A DNA stretch of 53,672 bases, taken from sequence record PV615261; one strand, written 5' to 3'. The notes beneath the pieces were generated by a model. The model saw nothing but the letters and a program-made list of their open reading frames with translations, had not been told where the DNA came from and did not search any database. A program made the translations under genes and the position numbers. Shown piece after piece: positions 3,316-53,672 of the stretch. Every line of letters starts with the position of its first letter. Within the stretch, counting starts at the first letter, position 1. The DNA is from Shigella phage vB_Shi_2KOFFS.

Positions 3316-5082
3316 ATGATGAACGTTAAGCAATGTGTGGCTAAGATTAAGCACGATGTACCAGACTGTAAATCCACATCTGGCAAGTCTTTACAGGTTT
3401 GGTTGAATGTCGATGAAGCTGGTAATAAGAATTTTTCTGGTTACTGTTTTGCATGTGGCGTTCTAGTACCAAATCCTTACGGAAATAATCCGGAGAACAT
3501 TCCAGAGATTAAAGTCAAAACTCCAGAAGAAATTCAGGAAGAAGTTGATGAAATCACTGCTTGTCCTCCGTTTGATTTAACCCATCGCAGCATTGAGCCA
3601 GAATTTTGGAAAGCTGCTGGTGTTCGACTTCTATATTCAGAGTATGATGGAAAGACTCCAAATGCTCTGGCACATGGCTACACCAAAAATGGTAAACTTG
3701 TTCGTTGGAAGATTAAACTTCTGAACAAGAAAGTTATGTGGTCAGTTGGCGACACTCAGGGTAACGACCCTTACAACTGGATGGCTGCAAAAGCAATTGG
3801 CGGTAAGACACTGTTCATCACAGAAGGTGAAGAAGACTGTATCGCATTGCGTCAAATCCTCAAAACTATGAACCGTGGTGGTGCATATGAAGATTTGGAT
3901 TTTGCTGTAATTAGTTTGAGCGACGGAAGTGATTCCGTACACAAATGTTTGTCACCAGTTGCAGAAGAAATTAAGCAACGTTGGGAGCAGGTTGTTATCG
4001 TATTTGATGATGACGAACCTGGACGTAAAGCTGCAAAAGAAGCGTGCCGATTGTTGCCTGGTGCAATGATTGCAACACTTCCAGCTAACGATGCCAACGA
4101 TTGTTTGAAGCGTGGCTTGCTCAAAGCTACTCAATCTGCTGTTGTGTTCCGTGCTGCTCGTCCTCTGCCTACAGCACTTGTCAACAAAGAACTTCTTATG
4201 GAAGAGCTTGATGACGAGGTTGAACAGGGTGTGGATTATCCTTGGCCCAAATTAACCGACTTAATGTTTGGTCAACGTCGAGCCGAAGTTATTACAATCG
4301 GTGGTGCAGAAGGTGGTGGTAAAACTACACTGTCCCGTCAGATTGTGCATCACAACATTACCAAGCACGATTGGGGAGTGTTTACTGCATACATGGAGGA
4401 AACTCCTACAGAAACACTGCGCCGTATGGCTGGCCTTAATGACAACTTGCCATATTGGGAACCCGCGTTCACTCGTGAAGACCCTCGATATGATGAAGCT
4501 AAGTTCCGTCAAACTGCTGCGAAGATGCTTCGTAACATGGAGATTTGGGACCGCAAGCAAGCTGGAGAAGACCCTTATGAAACCTGGGATGGGTTAAAGA
4601 CGATTCTTCGTCAGATTGGACCAGACATTGATATGTTTGTCCTTGATAACTTAACCTACTTATCGGAAGGGATTTCTGCCTCAGAGAAGAACGACTTCTT
4701 AGGTAAGCTGTATGCAGATATTACTAAGCTGGCAGACCAATATCAGTTCCATGTAAATATCTTGTCGCACCTTAACCCTGTGGCAAAAGGTCAACGACCT
4801 CATGAGGATGGTGGACGTATCAAGAAGTCAGACTTTACTGGCTCACGTGCTGCTGCTAAATATTCTCATGGTATGTTTGGCTTTGAGCGTAATAGCCAGG
4901 CAGTTGACCCAAACTGTTCTATCATTCGTTCCATTAAGGCTCGTAAGAGTGGTAAAACAGAAGGCTTCAAGACGTACTATGACACCGAATCCGGTCGAAT
5001 CATTCAACGTTCTTGGGATGACTCGCTGTTCGAAACCAAAGAGATTGTTCAACTCACTAAGAAGAACGGTCCACACCAATAA
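3316..5082 (+). CDS. bifunctional DNA primase-helicase (TOPRIM plus RecA/DnaB-like ATPase)
   Basis: N-terminal Cys cluster; TOPRIM motifs FITEGEEDCIAL and VVIVFDDDEPGRKAA; Walker A ITIGGAEGGGKTT; 588 aa. Confidence 0.85.
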   Translation: MMNVKQCVAKIKHDVPDCKSTSGKSLQVWLNVDEAGNKNFSGYCFACGVLVPNPYGNNPENIPEIKVKTPEEIQEEVDEITACPPFDLTHRSIEPEFWKAAGVRLLYSEYDGKTPNALAHGYTKNGKLVRWKIKLLNKKVMWSVGDTQGNDPYNWMAAKAIGGKTLFITEGEEDCIALRQILKTMNRGGAYEDLDFAVISLSDGSDSVHKCLSPVAEEIKQRWEQVVIVFDDDEPGRKAAKEACRLLPGAMIATLPANDANDCLKRGLLKATQSAVVFRAARPLPTALVNKELLMEELDDEVEQGVDYPWPKLTDLMFGQRRAEVITIGGAEGGGKTTLSRQIVHHNITKHDWGVFTAYMEETPTETLRRMAGLNDNLPYWEPAFTREDPRYDEAKFRQTAAKMLRNMEIWDRKQAGEDPYETWDGLKTILRQIGPDIDMFVLDNLTYLSEGISASEKNDFLGKLYADITKLADQYQFHVNILSHLNPVAKGQRPHEDGGRIKKSDFTGSRAAAKYSHGMFGFERNSQAVDPNCSIIRSIKARKSGKTEGFKTYYDTESGRIIQRSWDDSLFETKEIVQLTKKNGPHQ

Positions 5083-39419: not shown

Positions 39420-39436
39420 CCATTAGTTGGTTGTGA
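39420..39436 (+). promoter_or_regulatory. conserved promoter-like motif (CATTAGTTGG family), upstream of RNA polymerase gene
   Basis: cCATTAGTTGGtTGTGA; one of at least 9 copies of consensus ACATTAGTTGGATGTGAA. Confidence 0.45.
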
Positions 39437-39498
39437 TTATGAATAGGCTACGCAAGTCTAATCCGTTTCAGTTAAATCATAATCAATTGGAGACTATC

Positions 39499-41613
39499 AT
39501 GACTAACGAAGAATACCGTGCACTGGCTGCTGATGGCGCTCGCTTGAAAGAAGAAGGCCAAGGTTGGAAAGACGTGCTCGATACGATGGACCGTTGCAAT
39601 CAGATGGTAGATGAAATCACCTCCGCTACACAATCCGAAACTAAAACCGAAACTAAATTGGAGACTCGCAAAATGACAACTATCTCAACTCAAACTATCA
39701 AATCCGTTGTCCCTGCTATCACTGCTCTGGTATATCGTGCCAAAGAGAAACAGAACTACATGCAACCTCAGACCTGTGCTATTGCTGCTCTTGCAATCTT
39801 TAAGATGATGACCTCATTCACTCGTGATGATGTTGTTCCTGCAATTGCAATGGTTGAGCTGGCTTCTGCTTCAATTGCTGATGCCAACCGCTACAACAAC
39901 GATTTGAAAGCAATGCACTATGTTGACCCAGCTATCAACCTCATTGGTCTGGCTAAACACTTTGGCTTCATCACCATGAACGAAGATAAGTCATTCCAAC
40001 AAACTGACACATGGGTTGAACTGGTTACAACCAAAGACACAGCAGTGCCATTCACTGAGCGTGTTACATCTGAATCTCGTCGCAAGCCTTTCGTTAAAGG
40101 TGGCAAAGTTAAGCCATCCAAGACTCTGAAAGCTGCAATCGAATTCCTGCAAGATACTGAGTACCATGTGGAGACTGAGATGGTTCGCATCATTCAGTCC
40201 ATGCTTGAGCAACGTACTTATGGTGGCTTGCAGATGCCAGAAGCAATCCAGACTGAACTCCATGTTTGGAACAATGCTGTAGCAATGATGAATCAGGACA
40301 CACTGTATTCTGACTACTTTGCTGATAACCGTGGCCGTCTGTATCATGTAGCATGTGCTGGCCCTAACCCACAATCCTCTGACTTTGCTCGTTGCTTGTA
40401 TTCTCACAATGTTGAGAACATCGTTAAGAAGTTTAACGAAGATGGTTCTACTACCATTGCATACAACATGTTCATGGCAGAGCTGGAAGATATTTCTGGT
40501 GGTGAATGGTGCAGTGCTAAACGTTTAACTTATGTTGCTCAGAATCCGGCTGGTTCACTTGCTCGCATGATGAACATGCCTAAAGCTGAACGTCCTTCCA
40601 AGCCATTCACTTATGTTCGTCTGGCTCTGGATTGGTTCAAGTTTGAGACTATAGGTGAATGCGATTCTCGTGTAGGCTTTGGCTTAGATGCTAAATGTTC
40701 TGGTACTCAATATCTGGCATTCATTGCTGGTAACATGGAAATGGCTCGTGCTACAGGTCTGGTTGATTCTGAGACTAAAGCATCTGACCCATACCAGTTG
40801 AGTCTCCGTGAACTGTTGAAGTTACTCGACCGCTCTTCAATGAAGCCATCTCCTGAAATCATGGACGAATTCTTGAATCCGAAATCTGGTCGTAAGTTTA
40901 TCAAAACTCCGTACATGGCTATCCAATATGGTGGTGGTAAAGCTGCATTAACTGGTTCTTCTGACTTTATCTCCTACATGACAGAAGCGCTCCAGATTCC
41001 TATGGAGAAAGCTGAGGCATTTGCTGAACTGTGTGTAGAAGCAATCCATAACGCATTGGGTGCTAAGATTAACATGTTCATTGAGAAAGCTGCTGATGCT
41101 GCATACAACCGTTGTGTTGAACTTGGTAAAGAGTACATCACATACCGTCACACAGACGGTCAGGTTGTAATGAAGCCTTGCTTCCCATCTCGTGAAATCT
41201 GTGAGGCATTCAGCATTCGTGTTGACTCTCAAACTCGTGTCATCTTTGGCCAGATTCAGGAGAATAAGCCTTGGACCATTCGTGAATCCAACCCAACTAA
41301 AGAAGAATTCAAGCGTACTTTCGTTGTTAACTACATTCAAGGTATTGACGCATTGGTTGCTCGTACTGTTGCAGTTAAAGCTAAAGAAGCTGGTCTTCGT
41401 GGTTTTACTTCAATCCATGATTGTTTCCGTTGCTGTCTGGCAGATGCTCCACGTATGATGGAAGTTATTCGTGCAGCATATGTTGAAATCTTCGTAACCA
41501 ACAATCAATTCGAGAATCTGTCTAAGCAACTTGGTGGCATTCAGATGTATCATGAGAACATCGTAACCGAAGAGCTTCTGATGAGCGAACACGCTTACTA
41601 CTTCTGTCAATAA
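39499..41613 (+). CDS. T7-like single-subunit DNA-dependent RNA polymerase
   Basis: Motif A GLDAKCSGTQYLAFIAG (T7 DGSCSGIQH), motif B RKFIKTPYMAIQYGGGK, motif C FTSIHDCFRC (T7 IHDSFGT); ATG 39499 after GGAG; about 704 aa. Confidence 0.8.
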   Translation: MTNEEYRALAADGARLKEEGQGWKDVLDTMDRCNQMVDEITSATQSETKTETKLETRKMTTISTQTIKSVVPAITALVYRAKEKQNYMQPQTCAIAALAIFKMMTSFTRDDVVPAIAMVELASASIADANRYNNDLKAMHYVDPAINLIGLAKHFGFITMNEDKSFQQTDTWVELVTTKDTAVPFTERVTSESRRKPFVKGGKVKPSKTLKAAIEFLQDTEYHVETEMVRIIQSMLEQRTYGGLQMPEAIQTELHVWNNAVAMMNQDTLYSDYFADNRGRLYHVACAGPNPQSSDFARCLYSHNVENIVKKFNEDGSTTIAYNMFMAELEDISGGEWCSAKRLTYVAQNPAGSLARMMNMPKAERPSKPFTYVRLALDWFKFETIGECDSRVGFGLDAKCSGTQYLAFIAGNMEMARATGLVDSETKASDPYQLSLRELLKLLDRSSMKPSPEIMDEFLNPKSGRKFIKTPYMAIQYGGGKAALTGSSDFISYMTEALQIPMEKAEAFAELCVEAIHNALGAKINMFIEKAADAAYNRCVELGKEYITYRHTDGQVVMKPCFPSREICEAFSIRVDSQTRVIFGQIQENKPWTIRESNPTKEEFKRTFVVNYIQGIDALVARTVAVKAKEAGLRGFTSIHDCFRCCLADAPRMMEVIRAAYVEIFVTNNQFENLSKQLGGIQMYHENIVTEELLMSEHAYYFCQ

Positions 41614-41675: not shown

Positions 41676-41843
41676 ATGTTTACAGTGACCCTAGTAACCT
41701 ATTACGGCAAACAAGTTTGTGAGAAGTTTGAGACTTTAGAAGAAGCAAGAGCTTTTGCAGCACTTGAAGAGAACATTTATGTAGAGTGTGAAATCACTGA
41801 TGGTGATAAGCAATACGAAATAGTTAAGCCTACACTCAACTGA
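41676..41843 (+). CDS. hypothetical small protein (55 aa)
   Basis: ATG after GGAGCATATC; downstream of promoter-like motif. Confidence 0.45.
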   Translation: MFTVTLVTYYGKQVCEKFETLEEARAFAALEENIYVECEITDGDKQYEIVKPTLN

Positions 41844-41893
41844 TTCCCAATATTCAGACAATATTGCTGCATGTAATATTGTCTCGATATTCG

Positions 41894-41911
41894 ACATTAG
41901 TTGGATGTGAA
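41894..41911 (+). promoter_or_regulatory. conserved promoter-like motif copy
   Basis: ACATTAGTTGGATGTGAA exact consensus; no ORF follows for about 1.1 kb. Confidence 0.45.
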
Positions 41912-42610
41912 GTAAAAGAATACGGAGAAATATTACTCACGTTGTTCGTGGGTTTCCGCATGTCATGTTGAATCATTCTAGAAACATTCAGCATGTCAGC
42001 TTTGAGTTACAGTGTTGTAATGATGTGGCAATCATTGAACTCCCTAGGTAGGCCACCTACAGTTCCAGCAACCATGACTTAGAGTAGGAATATCTATCCG
42101 AAACTTGTACTTCACCTATAGCATGTTCAATTGCGACAATATTGCTCCATCTCCTATTATAAAGGCCCACCCACAAGCCGGGAGATAACTTTGGTAATAT
42201 TGGAACTTTTGGACATGCTTCTTTCTTTCAATCAGAATTCGAAAGAAGAGAAGAGTCGGAGCAAAGCCTCTCGTTTTCACGCAGAAGCCGCCCCGATTTT
42301 GAGCAACAAATATTGTGACAATTTTGTCGCAGTATGGCATGTAAATATTGCTACAAATTGGCATGTTAGAATGTGGCAGAATTGTTAGAGGACTAATCAC
42401 CTCGAAGATACAATCGTCTACCAATCTGGCATGTTAATTTTGTAACAGTATTTGTGCCAATTTCGCATGTAATAGCTGTATCAGTAATGACCCAATATTC
42501 TTGCAACCCGCATGAATACTGGCTTCCAGCCAAGCGAAGGCTTTATCATCGCATGTAATATTGTGACAATATTGGGATAAAACCCTTTATTTAATTTGTT
42601 TTATTATGCT

Positions 42611-49943: not shown

Positions 49944-50172
49944 CTTAAATATCAACTCAATAAAGCCAGAAGATATTCTCTTCCACCAGCCTCGTGGACA
50001 CTACTATCGAATTCTGTTTGCTACAAAAATTAAAACCCACTGCGGCAATTGGGTAGATGGGTTTGCTTACCAGGAAGTTAAGAAGTATGGAAATCATACT
50101 TTCTTGGGAATTAATTCGATAATTTATACAAGACCGAAGGAACTGTTTGATTCAGATTGGAAAGCAGTATAG
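49936..50172 (+). CDS. hypothetical protein (78 aa)
   Basis: ATG overlapping upstream gene end. Confidence 0.45.
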   Translation: MSDLNINSIKPEDILFHQPRGHYYRILFATKIKTHCGNWVDGFAYQEVKKYGNHTFLGINSIIYTRPKELFDSDWKAV

Positions 50173-50240
50173 TTCCAGGCTGTTCCGTCGAAGTGCCAAG
50201 CGGGTTTTGTACTCGCATTGGCCTTCGGCTTAATTCTGGG

Positions 50241-50258
50241 ACATTAGTAGAATTTGAT
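50241..50258 (+). promoter_or_regulatory. conserved promoter-like motif copy (degenerate)
   Basis: ACATTAGTaGaATTTGAt, preceded by TTAATTCTG shared with copy at 50381. Confidence 0.35.
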
Positions 50259-50380
50259 TCTGACCTCTTAGGGAAGAACTGCATTATACATCTATCGCCA
50301 AATGGGTGTCAAGCACTTTCTTAATTTATTTTATTTATTCTTATTATTCGTGCGGTTTGGAATAATGGAATAATTCTGAA

Positions 50381-50398
50381 ACATTAATTGGAATTGAC
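50381..50398 (+). promoter_or_regulatory. conserved promoter-like motif copy
   Basis: ACATTAaTTGGAaTTGAc, preceded by TTCTGAAACATTA as at 52345; 10 nt upstream of the structured element. Confidence 0.4.
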
Positions 50399-50408
50399 AA
50401 CATCAGAT

Positions 50409-50486
50409 AAGAGCTTTGTAACTAGGTAGTCCGTCTGGTACCAAGACGTGTGAGAACGTTCGATTCGTTCTACAAAGCTCTTTTCG
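50409..50486 (+). ncRNA. candidate small structured RNA with tRNA-like T-arm and acceptor-like stem, ending in a U-tract
   Basis: 12-bp closing stem 50409-50420/50471-50482; internal hairpins 50432-50448 (5-bp stem, 7-nt loop) and 50454-50470 GAACG-TTCGATT-CGTTC (canonical T-arm shape); no D-arm; followed by CTTTTC. Confidence 0.35.
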
Positions 50487-51031
50487 ATGGAATGTTTCCA
50501 TCATATACATTTATCTTTTAACATAGGCCAAAAGGCCGGAATACTTATTCGCAGAAAAGCTATTCACTTGTTATAGGCGATGTATTGGGATGAATTGGAA
50601 CTAAATAAGCAAGCTGTTAGGGCTGAATAATTAGAGGGTTATGCCTCATGCTTATGTTAGTCGTTCGAAAATAGGTTTGTGCCACAAGCTGCTGGTGCTC
50701 TGAGGAAGTCGGACAAACAGGGCTTAGAGTGGCATAATCCTCACAAAACCGCGCCACCAGCTATGCCAAAGCAGGTAGGTTGGGTGAATGTATTGGGAAG
50801 GGTTACAAAGCCTCTGTGACCTCCGTAGCTTGCCAGGCTGCGGTGCAGTTATGATACGCAGGTCGCACCCTAACGGGAGTAACCCTTCGCCAATGCAGTC
50901 ATCCAGAATTGACACAAACGGTAGGCAGTGGCCCGATTTTCGGCCTTCCTGCGCTGCCCTGTGGCCTGTTTCATGGGCCAAAAGATGAGAAGAGAAGTCA
51001 CAAACACTGAATCGAAAATTGGAGAGTTCCT

Positions 51032-51352
51032 ATGATTCGCAAGCATTCTGCTAAAGTTTTGACATTAAGAAATGTACTAATGTCTTCGCCAAGTGGGGAA
51101 GAGGAGGAAGAAACAATCCACTTCGTTCTCGTTGGCGGGCGTTGGTATTACAACGGGACCAATAACTTCACCGTAGGAATTTCGGAGAAAGATGGGTTCT
51201 GGAAGCACACTTTCAAAGACATACTCGAATGTAGTGCTAAATACACCCTTGCAGAAGTTAAGAAATATTTCTACTGCGGCCCAAACAAGTCCATGCAAAT
51301 CGCAACTCGCAATTGGACAACAAACCAACCAGTTTACGGAGTTCCATTTTGA
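51032..51352 (+). CDS. hypothetical protein (106 aa)
   Basis: ATG after GGAGAG. Confidence 0.5.
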   Translation: MIRKHSAKVLTLRNVLMSSPSGEEEEETIHFVLVGGRWYYNGTNNFTVGISEKDGFWKHTFKDILECSAKYTLAEVKKYFYCGPNKSMQIATRNWTTNQPVYGVPF

Positions 51353-52438: not shown

Positions 52439-52777
52439 ATGGCTAAGATTGTAACCGTAACTCAGTACGAAGCTAACGATGGTTCCCTGTTCCTGACCGA
52501 AGCAGAGTGTAATGCACATGACTTCAAACTGGAAAACGGTGCTAAAATTGAGAAAGCTGCCGAAGCGTACCTGAACACCGTTGGCGCTATCGACCGTTCT
52601 CGCTCCATGCAGAAGAACACCATCGAGCAGTTCCTGGCATTCTACCTGCCGTGGGTTGAAGCTGGTGAGCCGGAAGTTGAGCGTACTAAGTTCGATACTC
52701 CGAAAGAAGCTAAAGTTGCTGATGCAGCTGTTTCCGAAGCTGCCGAAGCTGCTGTTGAAGAAGCTCCGGTATTCTAA
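52439..52777 (+). CDS. small acidic protein with highly optimised codon usage (112 aa)
   Basis: ATG after AAGGT; net charge about -11; codon usage like the capsid genes; flanked by promoter-like motif and downstream hairpin. Confidence 0.6.
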   Translation: MAKIVTVTQYEANDGSLFLTEAECNAHDFKLENGAKIEKAAEAYLNTVGAIDRSRSMQKNTIEQFLAFYLPWVEAGEPEVERTKFDTPKEAKVADAAVSEAAEAAVEEAPVF

Positions 52778-53672
52778 GTTGCCGATGGCAAACTTGAGAG
52801 ACTAGGCTAAATCGATCTGGCGTGCACTGGAAGTTTTCCGGTGCTGCCTTGAACCCATTCCAGAGTGAGTGGGCTTCAATGAGCATTCTTGTGATTAGAG
52901 TTGGGAGGTAGGCCGATGCCCAAGCTCATGGCCCAGACAAGAGTGTTCATTGAAGTAGTTTTCTGAGTCTTACGACGGGCCTAAACTGCCTGGAGTTATT
53001 GCGACTGTTTTATTCATTTAAAATAAATGCAAATGATTCTGAAATGCGAGTTGCGGCTTAATTAAATTTAAGTCCTCTCCGTGGTCTTCCAATCCCACGT
53101 AACCAAATTTGGCGCATTGTGGCTTCGAGATGTGATTAATAAATCGGAGCATTAATTAATTTGTATTCTGCGATGCAAAGCAGGCTTAAGTCCTCCAGTG
53201 CGCGTGGGGATGTGACAGAGTACAAACTTAATTATGCAGTTGGATATTTCTAGAGGACGGACGAGCACACTGGAATGTCTTCAATTGGTTTAGTGTGAGA
53301 AGCTATGCCAATTTGAAACGTAACTCCTTGAGGAAGTGCTCCTCTGGACTTCCCTCCACACAGGAATCTCAAGCCTGTGGCAGCGACTTCGAAGCTGCAC
53401 TGCGTAACCTAATTCACCCTAAAGTGAGTTGCCCTGAGCATGGAAATAAACTGCTCATAACCGATGGTATCTACAAAGGTAGATTAAATCAGGTTGCCTG
53501 TTGGTACTTGGGTTCAACACCTGCTTGCACTCGCAAAGTAGTGCCTCGTACCTGAGATGAAGTGAGTCGGGACCATCAATCCCACGTTATGTCAAAACAC
53601 AGTAGGCGACTCACAGATTCTACAAGCCTCGCAGTTCGGGAAAACCTGCGTTATCAAAACCCCCCCCCCACC

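What the first reader, a model, noticed from the sequence alone, without database searches (positions are those of the whole stretch)
50690..50990. GC-rich island inside an otherwise AT-rich 860-bp gene-free gap
Between 50173 and 51031 there is no + strand gene. Its 3' part (about 50690-50990) is much more GC-rich than its surroundings, gives spurious ORFs on both strands, and has complementary segments (GCTGGTG 50690-50696 with CACCAGC 50755-50761; GGCCCGATTTTCGGCC at 50930) and a repeated ATGTATTGGGA (50583 and 50789). This composition is what a structured RNA or a recently acquired fragment would look like.
Basis: seen in the sequence. Interest (0 to 1): 0.4.

Follow-up and report, generated by a model that had tools for sequence, protein, structure and literature searches.

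The report
Structured leader RNA of a coliphage
The GC-rich island is not a gene or a piece of host DNA but the folded core of a long untranslated RNA leader. Phages of this family (Chaseviridae, subfamily Cleopatravirinae) keep it in front of a block of genes read by their own RNA polymerase, and its function is not yet known.

Summary
Positions 50690-50990 are 54.5% GC, against 38.7% for the rest of the gap and 44% for the genome. This is the sharpest local GC contrast in the window.

The window is a phiEcoM-GJ1-like phage (Carltongylesvirus, Chaseviridae). The island is non-coding: its ORFs are intact in only 8, 3 and 1 of 24 relatives, and its substitutions show no 3-base periodicity. It lies downstream of two copies of the phage-polymerase promoter (50241, 50381) and ends at the ribosome-binding site of the next gene (ATG 51032).

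It folds into three domains (D1, D2, D3) that follow a three-way-junction module, M1. All are supported by compensatory base changes across genera: 35 of 46, 15 of 24 and 15 of 118 pairs changed on both sides, and 0 of 500 shuffles reached these values. The helices need G-U pairs on the + strand.

The excess GC sits in the stems (60% GC paired, 41% unpaired). D2 carries a 25-27 bp duplex, the length typical of an RNase III substrate.

No Rfam family, tRNA, E. coli, plasmid or bacterial-genome match was found.

Best reading: a cis-acting processing and stability leader, comparable to T7 RNase III signals but far larger. The function is inferred, not shown. The RNA family appears undescribed.

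The parts
50191..50237 (+). Terminator-like hairpin just after the upstream 78-aa gene.
   Evidence: Homologous position is annotated as a rho-independent terminator in phage SA91KD. Not tested further here.
50231..50257 (+). Phage-RNA-polymerase promoter copy P4 (core ACATTAGTAGAATT at 50241).
   Evidence: The motif ACATTARTNGRAWT occurs 6 times on the + strand against 0.67 expected. It is homologous to 'putative phage promoter 4' of phiEcoM-GJ1. It forms a 27-nt direct repeat with P5.
50258..50370 (.). AT-rich spacer between the two promoters (31-37% GC).
   Evidence: Composition profile. Together with P4 and P5 this resembles the T7 primary-origin layout (own knowledge; not tested).
50371..50397 (+). 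Phage-RNA-polymerase promoter copy P5 (core at 50381). Probable start of the leader transcript.
   Evidence: Homologous to 'promoter 5' of phiEcoM-GJ1.
50406..50485 (+). tRNA-like cassette. It has a long closing stem, a 5-bp arm with a 7-nt loop, and a T-arm-like hairpin at 50453-50471 with loop UUCGAUU.
   Evidence: Folds of 16 variants. The G-UUCGAnn-C hairpin is kept in four unrelated cassette versions. It is not a tRNA by ARAGORN or Rfam.
50486..50539 (+). Two small invariant hairpins: GAUGGAAUGUUUCCAUC (50486-50502) and GGCC-AAAA-GGCC (50528-50539).
   Evidence: Alignment of 24 relatives and folds.
50597..50662 (+). Module M1, a three-way junction. It consists of closing stem P1, hairpin P2 (AGCU-GUUAG-GGCU), the invariant 9-nt junction GAAUAAUUA, and the variable hairpin P3.
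   Evidence: The same fold is obtained independently in 6 lineages. Model R1 finds it in phiA050, 4HA13, GJ1, Faunus, L031, Myduc, PP101, Y2, L053, L057 and L058. 10 of 12 P1 pairs show changes on both sides.
50669..50780 (+). Domain D1. It comprises an irregular hairpin at 50673-50741 that ends in an A-GGAAG-U loop, and hairpin D1b at 50753-50780 with the conserved loop YAYGCCAA. This is the 5' part of the GC island.
   Evidence: On alignment A5, every pair of helices 4-8 except one varies, and 95.2% of all cells are paired.
50781..50906 (+). Domain D2, a long hairpin. Its basal duplex is 25 bp with a 1x1 mismatch and a bulged G. Above it are a junction, a small CCC-UAAC-GGG hairpin, and a hypervariable tip at about 50820-50866 that occurs in four alternative cassettes.
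   Evidence: Eight variants and genera fold alike, with z from -3.9 to -6.9. The basal helix is 25-27 bp in five of the six lineages walked out (window, MLP1, 4HA13, Faunus, L031), and its distal half fully covaries; the phiA050 helix is interrupted near its base. Model R2 recovers the same loci.
50907..51031 (+). Domain D3.
   Evidence: On alignment A9, 15 of 24 pairs are changed on both sides against 4.2 +/- 1.6 in shuffles. D3 abuts the SD and ATG in every lineage examined.
50665..50675 (+). Left copy of the direct repeat TCGAAAATAGG. The right copy, TCGAAAATTGG, is at 51012-51022. Together they bracket the GC island.
   Evidence: family D9. Meaning unresolved.

Best explanation
The island is the core (domains D1, D2 and D3) of a highly folded, untranslated leader RNA of about 640 nt. 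The leader runs from about 50397 to 51031.

The phage's own T7-like RNA polymerase transcribes it from the tandem promoters P4 and P5. It runs without interruption into the ribosome-binding site of the first gene of the next gene block: small genes first, then thymidylate synthase, primase/helicase and DNA polymerase.

It is GC-rich because its stems need G-C pairs in an AT-rich genome.

The most likely function is cis-acting RNA processing and protection.
- The 25-27 bp duplex of D2 is cut by host RNase III.
- The hairpins left behind (M1/D1 upstream, D3 downstream) shield the RNA ends and set the 5' end and translation context of the downstream message.
- This is what the RNase III signals of T7 do, but in a much larger modular form.

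Shown here: the island is non-coding, it lies downstream of phage promoter copies, it forms conserved + strand RNA structure with covariation, and it always abuts the SD.

Inferred: that it is transcribed, that RNase III cleaves it, and that this stabilises the RNA or affects translation.
For: Non-coding:
- Island ORFs are intact in only 8/24, 3/24 and 1/24 relatives. Variable columns fall 41/41/47 by codon phase.

Promoters:
- The phage promoter motif occurs 6 times on the + strand against 0.67 expected. Two copies lie at 50241 and 50381, matching the annotated promoters of GJ1 and SA91KD.

Structure and covariation:
- RNAalifold predicts 118 pairs. 99.2% of cells are paired, and 15 pairs changed on both sides against 6.1 +/- 1.5 in shuffles.
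- Across genera, M1+D1 has 35 of 46 pairs changed on both sides against 12.7 +/- 2.5, with 7-13 in the slid controls.
- Across genera, D3 has 15 of 24 pairs changed on both sides against 4.2 +/- 1.6.
- The D2 basal duplex is 25-27 bp in five of the six lineages walked out, with completely different distal sequences.

Strand:
- 11% of paired cells are G-U. The + strand minimum free energy (MFE) is -161.9 kcal/mol, against -137.5 for the - strand.

GC excess sits in the stems:
- Paired positions are 60.5% GC and unpaired positions 40.7%.

Selection:
- Within the genus, M1, D1 and D3 are 97.5%, 94.9% and 93.9% identical. The flanking small genes are 82-83% identical.

Adjacency to translation signals:
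- D3 ends at the SD and ATG in the window, phiA050, 4HA13, Faunus, L031, PP101 and GJ1, even where the downstream gene differs.

RNase III substrate features:
- E. coli RNase III substrates typically have two helical turns. Bulges or internal loops limit cleavage to one strand and leave protective 3' hairpins (PMC1540722).

Gene order:
- The order is RNA polymerase, early genes, this leader, small genes, then primase/helicase and DNA polymerase. This mirrors the T7 region around phi1.1A/B and R1.1 (own knowledge).
Against: - No transcript or cleavage data exist for any phage of this family.
- A T7 RNase III signal is about 60 nt. That does not explain 430+ nt with near-invariant loops and junctions, such as the M1 junction, the GGAAG loop and the YAYGCCAA loop.
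- The type phage phiEcoM-GJ1 has lost almost all of D2 to a small HNH-endonuclease-like gene and is viable. D2 is therefore dispensable, at least in the laboratory.
- Phage Myduc has M1 but no D1-D3.
- PP101 has an extra promoter copy between D1 and D2. The modules can therefore be transcribed separately and may have separate roles.
- Alignments A5 and A9 were fitted to the models, which favours the tested structure.
Confidence: 0.45

Rival explanations
1. A stable RNA that acts in trans. After processing, M1-D1 (perhaps with D2) would persist as a large non-coding RNA. It could bind a host or phage protein or a small molecule, for example as a host-takeover or anti-defence decoy, or as a ligand-sensing regulator built on the M1 junction.
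For: - Loops and junctions are near-invariant while stems covary. This is the pattern of aptamers and protein-binding RNAs.
- M1 is conserved in every Cleopatravirinae genus examined.
- The core is more conserved than the neighbouring proteins.
- The locus sits beside an anti-restriction gene, in a region with variable accessory cassettes.
- A tRNA-like cassette lies just upstream.
- PP101 has a promoter between D1 and D2, so M1-D1 could be a separate unit.
Against: - No terminator or defined 3' end was found.
- Every module lies in a 5' leader that runs into an SD.
- No partner protein, ligand or target is identifiable.
- There is no Rfam match.
- Neighbouring genes have no recognisable RNA-binding domains.
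Confidence: 0.25
2. A replication-origin element. Transcripts from P4 and P5 would open the AT-rich spacer and form a structured primer or R-loop in the island. The analogy is to the T7 primary origin (phi1.1A/B plus an AT-rich region) or to the ColE1 primer RNA II.
For: - Two tandem phage promoters flank a 31-37% GC stretch.
- The position between the RNA polymerase and the replication genes resembles T7.
- GC skew is positive (+0.18 to +0.29) over 50550-50800.
- The region is a hotspot for recombination and insertion.
Against: - T7-type origins need no structured RNA (own knowledge).
- Cumulative GC skew shows no inflection here.
- The island has no G-runs or iterons.
- GJ1 and Myduc lack parts or all of D1-D3 yet replicate.
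- D3 is fixed to the SD, which argues for a role in the message.
Confidence: 0.12
3. A scar of an inserted or acquired DNA segment, such as a miniature mobile element or a fragment from another genome, with no function of its own.
For: - The island is bracketed by a 10/11 direct repeat, TCGAAAATAGG and TCGAAAATTGG.
- Its ends carry short inverted matches: GTTTGTG at 50675 and CACAAAC at 50999.
- Its composition differs from its surroundings.
- Myduc has M1 directly before the SD, without D1-D3.
Against: - There is a single syntenic copy per genome.
- There is no match in E. coli genomes, plasmids or bacterial and archaeal genomes.
- It is conserved across genera with compensatory changes, and is more conserved than the flanking genes. 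It is therefore under selection as a structure.
Confidence: 0.05
4. One or more small protein genes, possibly hidden by a frameshift.
For: - ORFs of 46, 66 and 85 aa exist.
- Several GenBank records annotate small ORFs here.
- The GTG at 50679 is preceded by a weak SD-like AAAATAGG.
Against: - The ORFs are broken in most relatives.
- Annotators chose different ORFs in different records.
- Substitutions show no codon periodicity.
- Double substitutions preserve base pairs but not amino acids.
- In Faunus and 4HA13 the 50679 frame stops after 7 codons (sequences).
Confidence: 0.02

Closest known systems
RNase III processing signals of phage T7 (such as R1.1, next to promoters phi1.1A/B).
   Same: - It lies in an untranslated stretch of a transcript made by a T7-like phage polymerase, just after tandem phage promoters and before small genes that precede the replication genes.
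- It contains an irregular duplex of at least two helical turns with a mismatch and a bulge.
[quoted passage not shown]
   Different: - The T7 signals are single hairpins of about 60 nt. Here there are four ordered domains over 430+ nt, or about 640 nt with the tRNA-like cassette.
- Loops and junctions are invariant, and there is no sequence similarity to the T7 signals.
- Cleavage has not been shown.
- D2 is missing in phiEcoM-GJ1.
Large structured non-coding RNAs of phages and bacteria whose function is unknown (ROOL, GOLLD, HEARO, OLE).
   Same: - Several hundred nucleotides, multi-domain, and supported by covariation.
- Phage-borne and close to a tRNA-like element.
- Function unknown.
   Different: - No match to any of these Rfam models, even at E <= 10.
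- Those RNAs are free-standing genes, whereas this one is continuous with a message leader.
- Its host range is limited to one subfamily of enterobacterial and Aeromonas phages.
Riboswitch-type or protein-binding three-way junctions in 5' leaders.
   Same: M1 has covarying stems around an invariant junction and loop. In Myduc it sits about 15 nt before the SD.
   Different: - No known aptamer family matches.
- No expression platform or terminator was identified.
- In the window, M1 lies 370 nt from the SD.
T7 primary replication origin and the ColE1 primer RNA II.
   Same: - Tandem phage promoters plus an AT-rich segment (T7).
- A long structured transcript near the start of the replication module (ColE1 RNA II, about 550 nt).
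   Different: - The AT-rich part lies upstream of the island and is not part of it.
- There is no evidence of an R-loop, an RNase H site or a replication start.
- The island is dispensable in part (GJ1) or absent (Myduc).

Membership tests
Any Rfam 15 family | Covariance-model score at or above the family's gathering threshold. | tested here: not met
   There were no matches over the whole window at gathering thresholds. At E <= 10 over 50100-51100 there were only two chance-level hits, a plastid 3'UTR and a fly lncRNA.
tRNA / tmRNA (for the cassette at 50406-50485) | Cloverleaf recognised by ARAGORN or by the Rfam tRNA model. | tested here: not met
   ARAGORN finds none in the window or in 24 loci. 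The Rfam tRNA model does not hit even at E <= 10 in a 141-nt search. Only a T-arm-like hairpin (G-UUCGAUU-C) and a 5-bp/7-nt arm are present.
T7-type RNase III processing signal | Double helix of about two turns (at least 20 bp), often with an internal loop or bulge. | tested here: met
   The D2 basal helix is 25-27 bp with a 1x1 mismatch and a single bulge in five of the six lineages walked out; the phiA050 helix is interrupted near its base. The criterion is from PMC1540722.
T7-type RNase III processing signal | Lies in a non-coding stretch of a phage-polymerase transcript. | tested here: met
   Phage promoter copies lie at 50241 and 50381, and there is no terminator before ATG 51032. Transcription itself is inferred.
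T7-type RNase III processing signal | Site-specific cleavage by host RNase III. | not testable with these tools
   This needs in vitro cleavage, or end mapping in wild-type versus rnc hosts.
T7-type RNase III processing signal | No excluded base pairs in the proximal and distal boxes. | not tested
   The cleavage site is unknown, so the boxes cannot be placed.
T7-type primary origin | Two tandem phage promoters with an adjacent AT-rich segment. | tested here: met
   P4 and P5 are 140 nt apart and flank 31-37% GC DNA. This concerns the 5' part of the gap, not the island.
T7-type primary origin | DNA synthesis starts there. | not testable with these tools
   GC skew gives no signal. Replication mapping is needed.
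Riboswitch / aptamer (module M1) | Conserved junction and loop nucleotides with covarying stems. | tested here: met
   AAGCUNUUNGGGCUGA(A)UAAUU is invariant. 10 of 12 P1 pairs are changed on both sides.
Riboswitch / aptamer (module M1) | An expression platform (alternative pairing with a terminator or the SD) and a ligand. | tested here: inconclusive
   No terminator was found. The SD is near M1 only in Myduc. A ligand cannot be tested with these tools.
Protein-coding gene | An ORF conserved among relatives, with codon-phase bias in substitutions. | tested here: not met
   ORFs are intact in 8/24, 3/24 and 1/24 relatives, and the phase counts are 41/41/47.
Miniature mobile element / acquired fragment | Flanking target-site duplication and terminal inverted repeats. 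| tested here: inconclusive
   There is a 10/11 direct repeat at 50665 and 51012. The inverted matches are only 7 nt long, and the right-hand one is 6 nt away from the repeat.
Miniature mobile element / acquired fragment | Multiple copies, or a donor sequence elsewhere. | tested here: not met
   There is one syntenic copy per phage. There was no match in E. coli genomes, plasmids or GTDB species genomes.

The most novel reading that the evidence does not exclude
M1-D1-D2-D3 is a previously undescribed class of large modular non-coding RNA of Cleopatravirinae phages, with a function of its own. For example, it could be a ligand- or protein-sensing regulator built on the invariant M1 junction, or an RNA decoy used in host takeover or anti-defence. 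On this reading the swapped hairpin cassettes and the tRNA-like cassette would reflect an arms race rather than neutral drift.
Probability: 0.2. Interest if true: 0.75.

Novelty: new member of a known kind. Interest (0 to 1): 0.5.

Why it matters
Large structured RNAs with strong covariation are rare in phages, and few sit in phages that grow easily on E. coli.

This one is more conserved than the proteins around it. It is found across at least seven lineages of one phage subfamily. It is absent from Rfam and from the papers searched.

Nature has already supplied variants for testing:
- phiEcoM-GJ1 lacks D2.
- Myduc lacks D1-D3.
- PP101 has the element split by a promoter.
- Close relatives carry four alternative hairpin cassettes.

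This makes its function directly testable. The result also corrects the small 'hypothetical protein' ORFs annotated over this region in many GenBank records. It gives a concrete candidate for how phages with T7-like polymerases outside the Autographiviridae process their long transcripts.

Tried and rejected
Known RNA families, tRNA and tmRNA:
- Rfam at gathering and at permissive thresholds, and ARAGORN, found nothing.
- An apparent resemblance of GAGGAAGUCGG...ACAAACAGGGCUUA to the RNase P conserved regions was dropped. Covariation shows the motif is simply the loop and stem of a small hairpin.
- A hammerhead-like reading of CUGAGGA...AAAC was rejected for the same reason.

Coding:
- The ORFs are not conserved and there is no periodicity.
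- Pfam finds nothing in the neighbouring genes or in the GJ1 insert. PHROGs calls the GJ1 insert an endonuclease.

Host or plasmid origin:
- No match was found.

Long-range pairings that were considered but lack covariation:
- GAGGGUUAUGCC (50634) with GGCAUAAUCCUC (50731). The P3 loop varies and the partner does not change with it.
- GGAACU (50597) with AGUUCC (51025). The A/U change is not compensated.
- UUCGA (50663) with UCGAA (51011). This is not kept in phiA050.

Searches with limited yield:
- The metagenome scan for the M1 motif gave only two further Carltongylesvirus contigs.
- Model R2 was too sequence-specific to align distant D2 copies with default filters. With filters off it recovered them only weakly. 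D2 covariation therefore rests on independent folds.
- Genome-wide GC skew was uninformative for an origin.
- Literature searches found no description of this region and no transcriptome for the family.

Full report
WHAT THE WINDOW IS

The window is nearly a whole genome of a phiEcoM-GJ1-like phage (genus Carltongylesvirus, subfamily Cleopatravirinae, family Chaseviridae). The 7.7 kb around the finding match 61 phage records, the best at 93% identity. All large ORFs are on the + strand.

The gene order is as follows:
- T7-like RNA polymerase (39427-41613);
- small early genes, endolysin (48704) and an anti-restriction protein (49401);
- a 78-aa gene, then the gap, then small genes of unknown function;
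- across the window junction, thymidylate synthase, primase/helicase, DNA polymerase, exonuclease, ligase and terminase.

CHECKING THE OBSERVATION

- 50690-50990 is 54.5% GC, 50173-50689 is 38.7%, and the window is 44.0%.
- Only 0.9% of 300-nt windows are as GC-rich.
- No other place in the window has a larger GC contrast to its flanks.
- The ORFs on both strands exist.
- The quoted complementary and repeated words exist, with offsets of 1-3 bases.

THE ISLAND IS NOT CODING AND NOT BORROWED

The three island ORFs are intact in only 8, 3 and 1 of 24 distinct relatives. Variable alignment columns fall 41/41/47 over the three codon phases. GenBank annotators have called different small ORFs here in different phages.

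The island alone matches only the syntenic site of 43 Carltongylesvirus records, at 83-94% identity and almost without indels. It has no match in 5,426 complete E. coli genomes or in 72,556 plasmids. Its most conserved motif is absent from 185,579 bacterial and archaeal species genomes.

WHAT LIES UPSTREAM

The phage-polymerase promoter motif ACATTARTNGRAWT occurs six times, always on the + strand, against 0.67 expected. Two copies lie in the gap, at 50241 (P4) and 50381 (P5). They match the promoters annotated in phiEcoM-GJ1 and SA91KD and flank the AT-rich part of the gap.

No terminator-like site separates P5 from ATG 51032, apart from a weak 5-bp hairpin inside the structure. The island is therefore most simply part of a 5' leader of about 640 nt. 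Transcription is inferred, because no transcript data were found.

ANATOMY

An alignment of 24 distinct relatives shows invariant blocks interrupted by hairpins. These hairpins are exchanged wholesale between otherwise near-identical phages.

In order, the leader contains:
- a tRNA-like cassette (50406-50485);
- two small invariant hairpins;
- module M1 (50597-50662), a three-way junction;
- D1 (50669-50780);
- D2 (50781-50906), a long hairpin;
- D3 (50907-51031), two hairpins followed by GUCACAAAC and the Shine-Dalgarno sequence.

EVIDENCE FOR RNA STRUCTURE

Within the genus:
- RNAalifold predicts 118 pairs.
- 99.2% of cells are standard pairs.
- 15 pairs have changes on both sides, against 6.1 +/- 1.5 in shuffles (0 of 500 reached this) and 2-4 when partners are slid.

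Homologues in other genera were found by nhmmer and motif scans. They are Aeromonas phage phiA050, Sabourvirus 4HA13, Faunusvirus Faunus and an IMG/VR contig (L031). Folded on their own, M1, D1, D2 and D3 of each lineage adopt the same shapes.

Covariance models built from the genus alignments gave these results:
- They recover the distant copies at the expected coordinates.
- For M1+D1, 95.2% of cells are paired and 35 of 46 pairs are changed on both sides, against 12.7 +/- 2.5 in shuffles and 7-13 in slid controls.
- For D3, 95.8% of cells are paired and 15 of 24 pairs are changed on both sides, against 4.2 +/- 1.6 in shuffles and 1-5 in slid controls.
- These alignments are fitted to the models and so lean towards the structure. 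The independent folds argue the same way.

The D2 basal duplex is 25-27 bp in the window, MLP1, 4HA13, Faunus and L031; the phiA050 helix is interrupted near its base. Its proximal half has a conserved sequence and its distal half has unrelated but complementary sequences.

The helices are strand-specific. 11% of paired cells are G-U, which would be C-A mismatches on the other strand. The + strand folds 24 kcal/mol better than the - strand.

The 438-nt core folds with z = -3.6.

The GC excess is in the stems: paired positions are 60.5% GC and unpaired positions 40.7%. This explains the 'island'.

M1, D1 and D3 are 94-97.5% identical within the genus, whereas the flanking small genes are 82-83% identical.

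GGCCCGAUUUUCGGCC is the tip of D3 hairpin A and has compensatory variants.

GCUGGUG/CACCAGC stays complementary. It shows changes on both sides in 4 of 7 pairs once phiA050 and Faunus are included. It competes with the inner D1 helices and with the D1b hairpin, both of which are kept across genera. It may be an alternative conformer, and I cannot decide this.

The second ATGTATTGGGA is the 5' strand of the D2 duplex. The first copy is unexplained.

DISTRIBUTION AND NATURAL VARIANTS

M1 is present in the syntenic gap of every Cleopatravirinae genus examined:
- Carltongylesvirus, Sabourvirus, Faunusvirus, Loessnervirus Y2, Suwonvirus PP101 and Myducvirus;
- phiA050;
- three IMG/VR contigs and Pantoea phage SSEM1.

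It was not found in two Nefertitivirinae loci, which also lack the gap.

D2 and D3 are recognisable by eye in PP101. That phage also has an extra phage-promoter copy between D1 and D2.

Myduc has M1 directly before its SD and no D1-D3.

phiEcoM-GJ1 carries a different M1/D1 allele. Its D1 tail and nearly all of D2 are replaced by a small gene with an HNH-type CxxC...HH...CxxH motif (PHROG 'endonuclease', E = 9e-10). D3 is kept intact.

The modules are therefore separable, and D2 is dispensable in a viable phage.

D3 always abuts the SD and ATG, even where the downstream gene differs: a 69-aa gene in some relatives and the 106-aa gene in others.

MECHANISM

I commit to a cis-acting processing and stability leader.

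A 25-27 bp duplex with a mismatch and a bulge is what E. coli RNase III substrates look like. Such sites leave protective hairpins (PMC1540722). In T7, tandem promoters phi1.1A/B and the RNase III site R1.1 occupy the equivalent map position (own knowledge).

Shown: non-coding, conserved + strand structure, promoter copies upstream, and fixed adjacency to the SD.

Inferred: transcription, cleavage and the effect on the message.

I put about 0.9 on 'selected, structured, non-coding + strand RNA element' and about 0.45 on this particular function. The size of the element, its invariant loops and junctions, and the dispensability of D2 are not well explained by processing alone.

The rivals are:
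- a trans-acting RNA (0.25);
- an origin-associated primer RNA (0.12);
- an insertion scar without function (0.05). This is suggested by the 10/11 direct repeat TCGAAAATAGG/TCGAAAATTGG that brackets the island, but contradicted by single-copy synteny and selection;
- coding (0.02).

COMPARISON WITH KNOWN SYSTEMS

The element works most like T7 RNase III signals, but membership cannot be claimed without cleavage data.

It is not a member of any Rfam family, and the upstream cassette is not a tRNA.

It resembles the large phage RNAs of unknown function (ROOL, GOLLD) only in being large, structured and near a tRNA-like element.

I file it as a new member of a known kind: a structured phage leader or non-coding RNA family that has not been described.

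Noticed in passing
window 50406-50485: A tRNA-like cassette lies right after promoter P5. It has a long closing stem, a 5-bp arm with a 7-nt loop, and a T-arm-like hairpin with loop UUCGAUU. At least four unrelated cassette versions in relatives keep the G-UUCGAnn-C hairpin. ARAGORN and the Rfam tRNA model do not call it.
   Followed up: partly
window 50231-50397: Two phage-polymerase promoter copies lie 140 nt apart and flank a 31-37% GC stretch. This is the same layout as the T7 primary origin. Many relatives carry a third promoter copy plus an extra 120-310 nt cassette between copies, sometimes with a small ORF.
   Followed up: partly
L002 (phiEcoM-GJ1) 4114-4515: The ORF annotated 'putative exonuclease SbcC' is a small HNH-type endonuclease-like gene (PHROG 2340) with its own SD. 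It has replaced most of domain D2. It is probably a homing-endonuclease insertion into the conserved RNA locus.
   Followed up: yes
window 50665-50675 and 51012-51022; 50675-50681, 50913-50919, 50999-51005: The direct repeat TCGAAAATAGG/TCGAAAATTGG brackets the GC island exactly, and the second copy carries the SD. GTTTGTG at the island start is complementary to CACAAAC, which occurs twice in D3. This could be an insertion scar, an alternative pairing or a protein-binding site. It is unresolved.
   Followed up: partly
L021 (PP952070.1): 'Staphylococcus phage Pel53' (host given as S. hyicus) is about 87% identical to E. coli Carltongylesvirus phages across this region. The host assignment looks doubtful.
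   Followed up: no
window 52450-53000: A second GC-rich stretch (50-55% GC) lies here. Part of it is downstream of the 112-aa gene that ends at 52777. It contains a 19-nt inverted repeat (52874-52892 / 52937-52955, 89% complementary). It may be another structured RNA.
   Followed up: no
window start/end; L047 5891-5966 and 6868-7437: The ST32 paper reports a 95-bp tRNA-Arg about 2.8 kb downstream of the island (PMC6266442). ARAGORN and Rfam find no tRNA in this window. Proteus phage Myduc has an annotated tRNA-Arg and a putative CCA-adding nucleotidyl transferase in the same gene block.
   Followed up: partly
window 41832-41998: Long imperfect inverted repeats lie around and just after another phage promoter copy (41894). 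One has 34-nt arms, and the other is a 38-nt palindrome at 41961-41998. They may be further processing or termination hairpins.
   Followed up: no
L046 (PP101) 2101-2120: A phage promoter copy (ACATTAGTTGGAATTGAA) lies between D1 and D2 of the PP101 leader. In that phage, M1-D1 and D2-D3 can therefore be transcribed from different starts.
   Followed up: no
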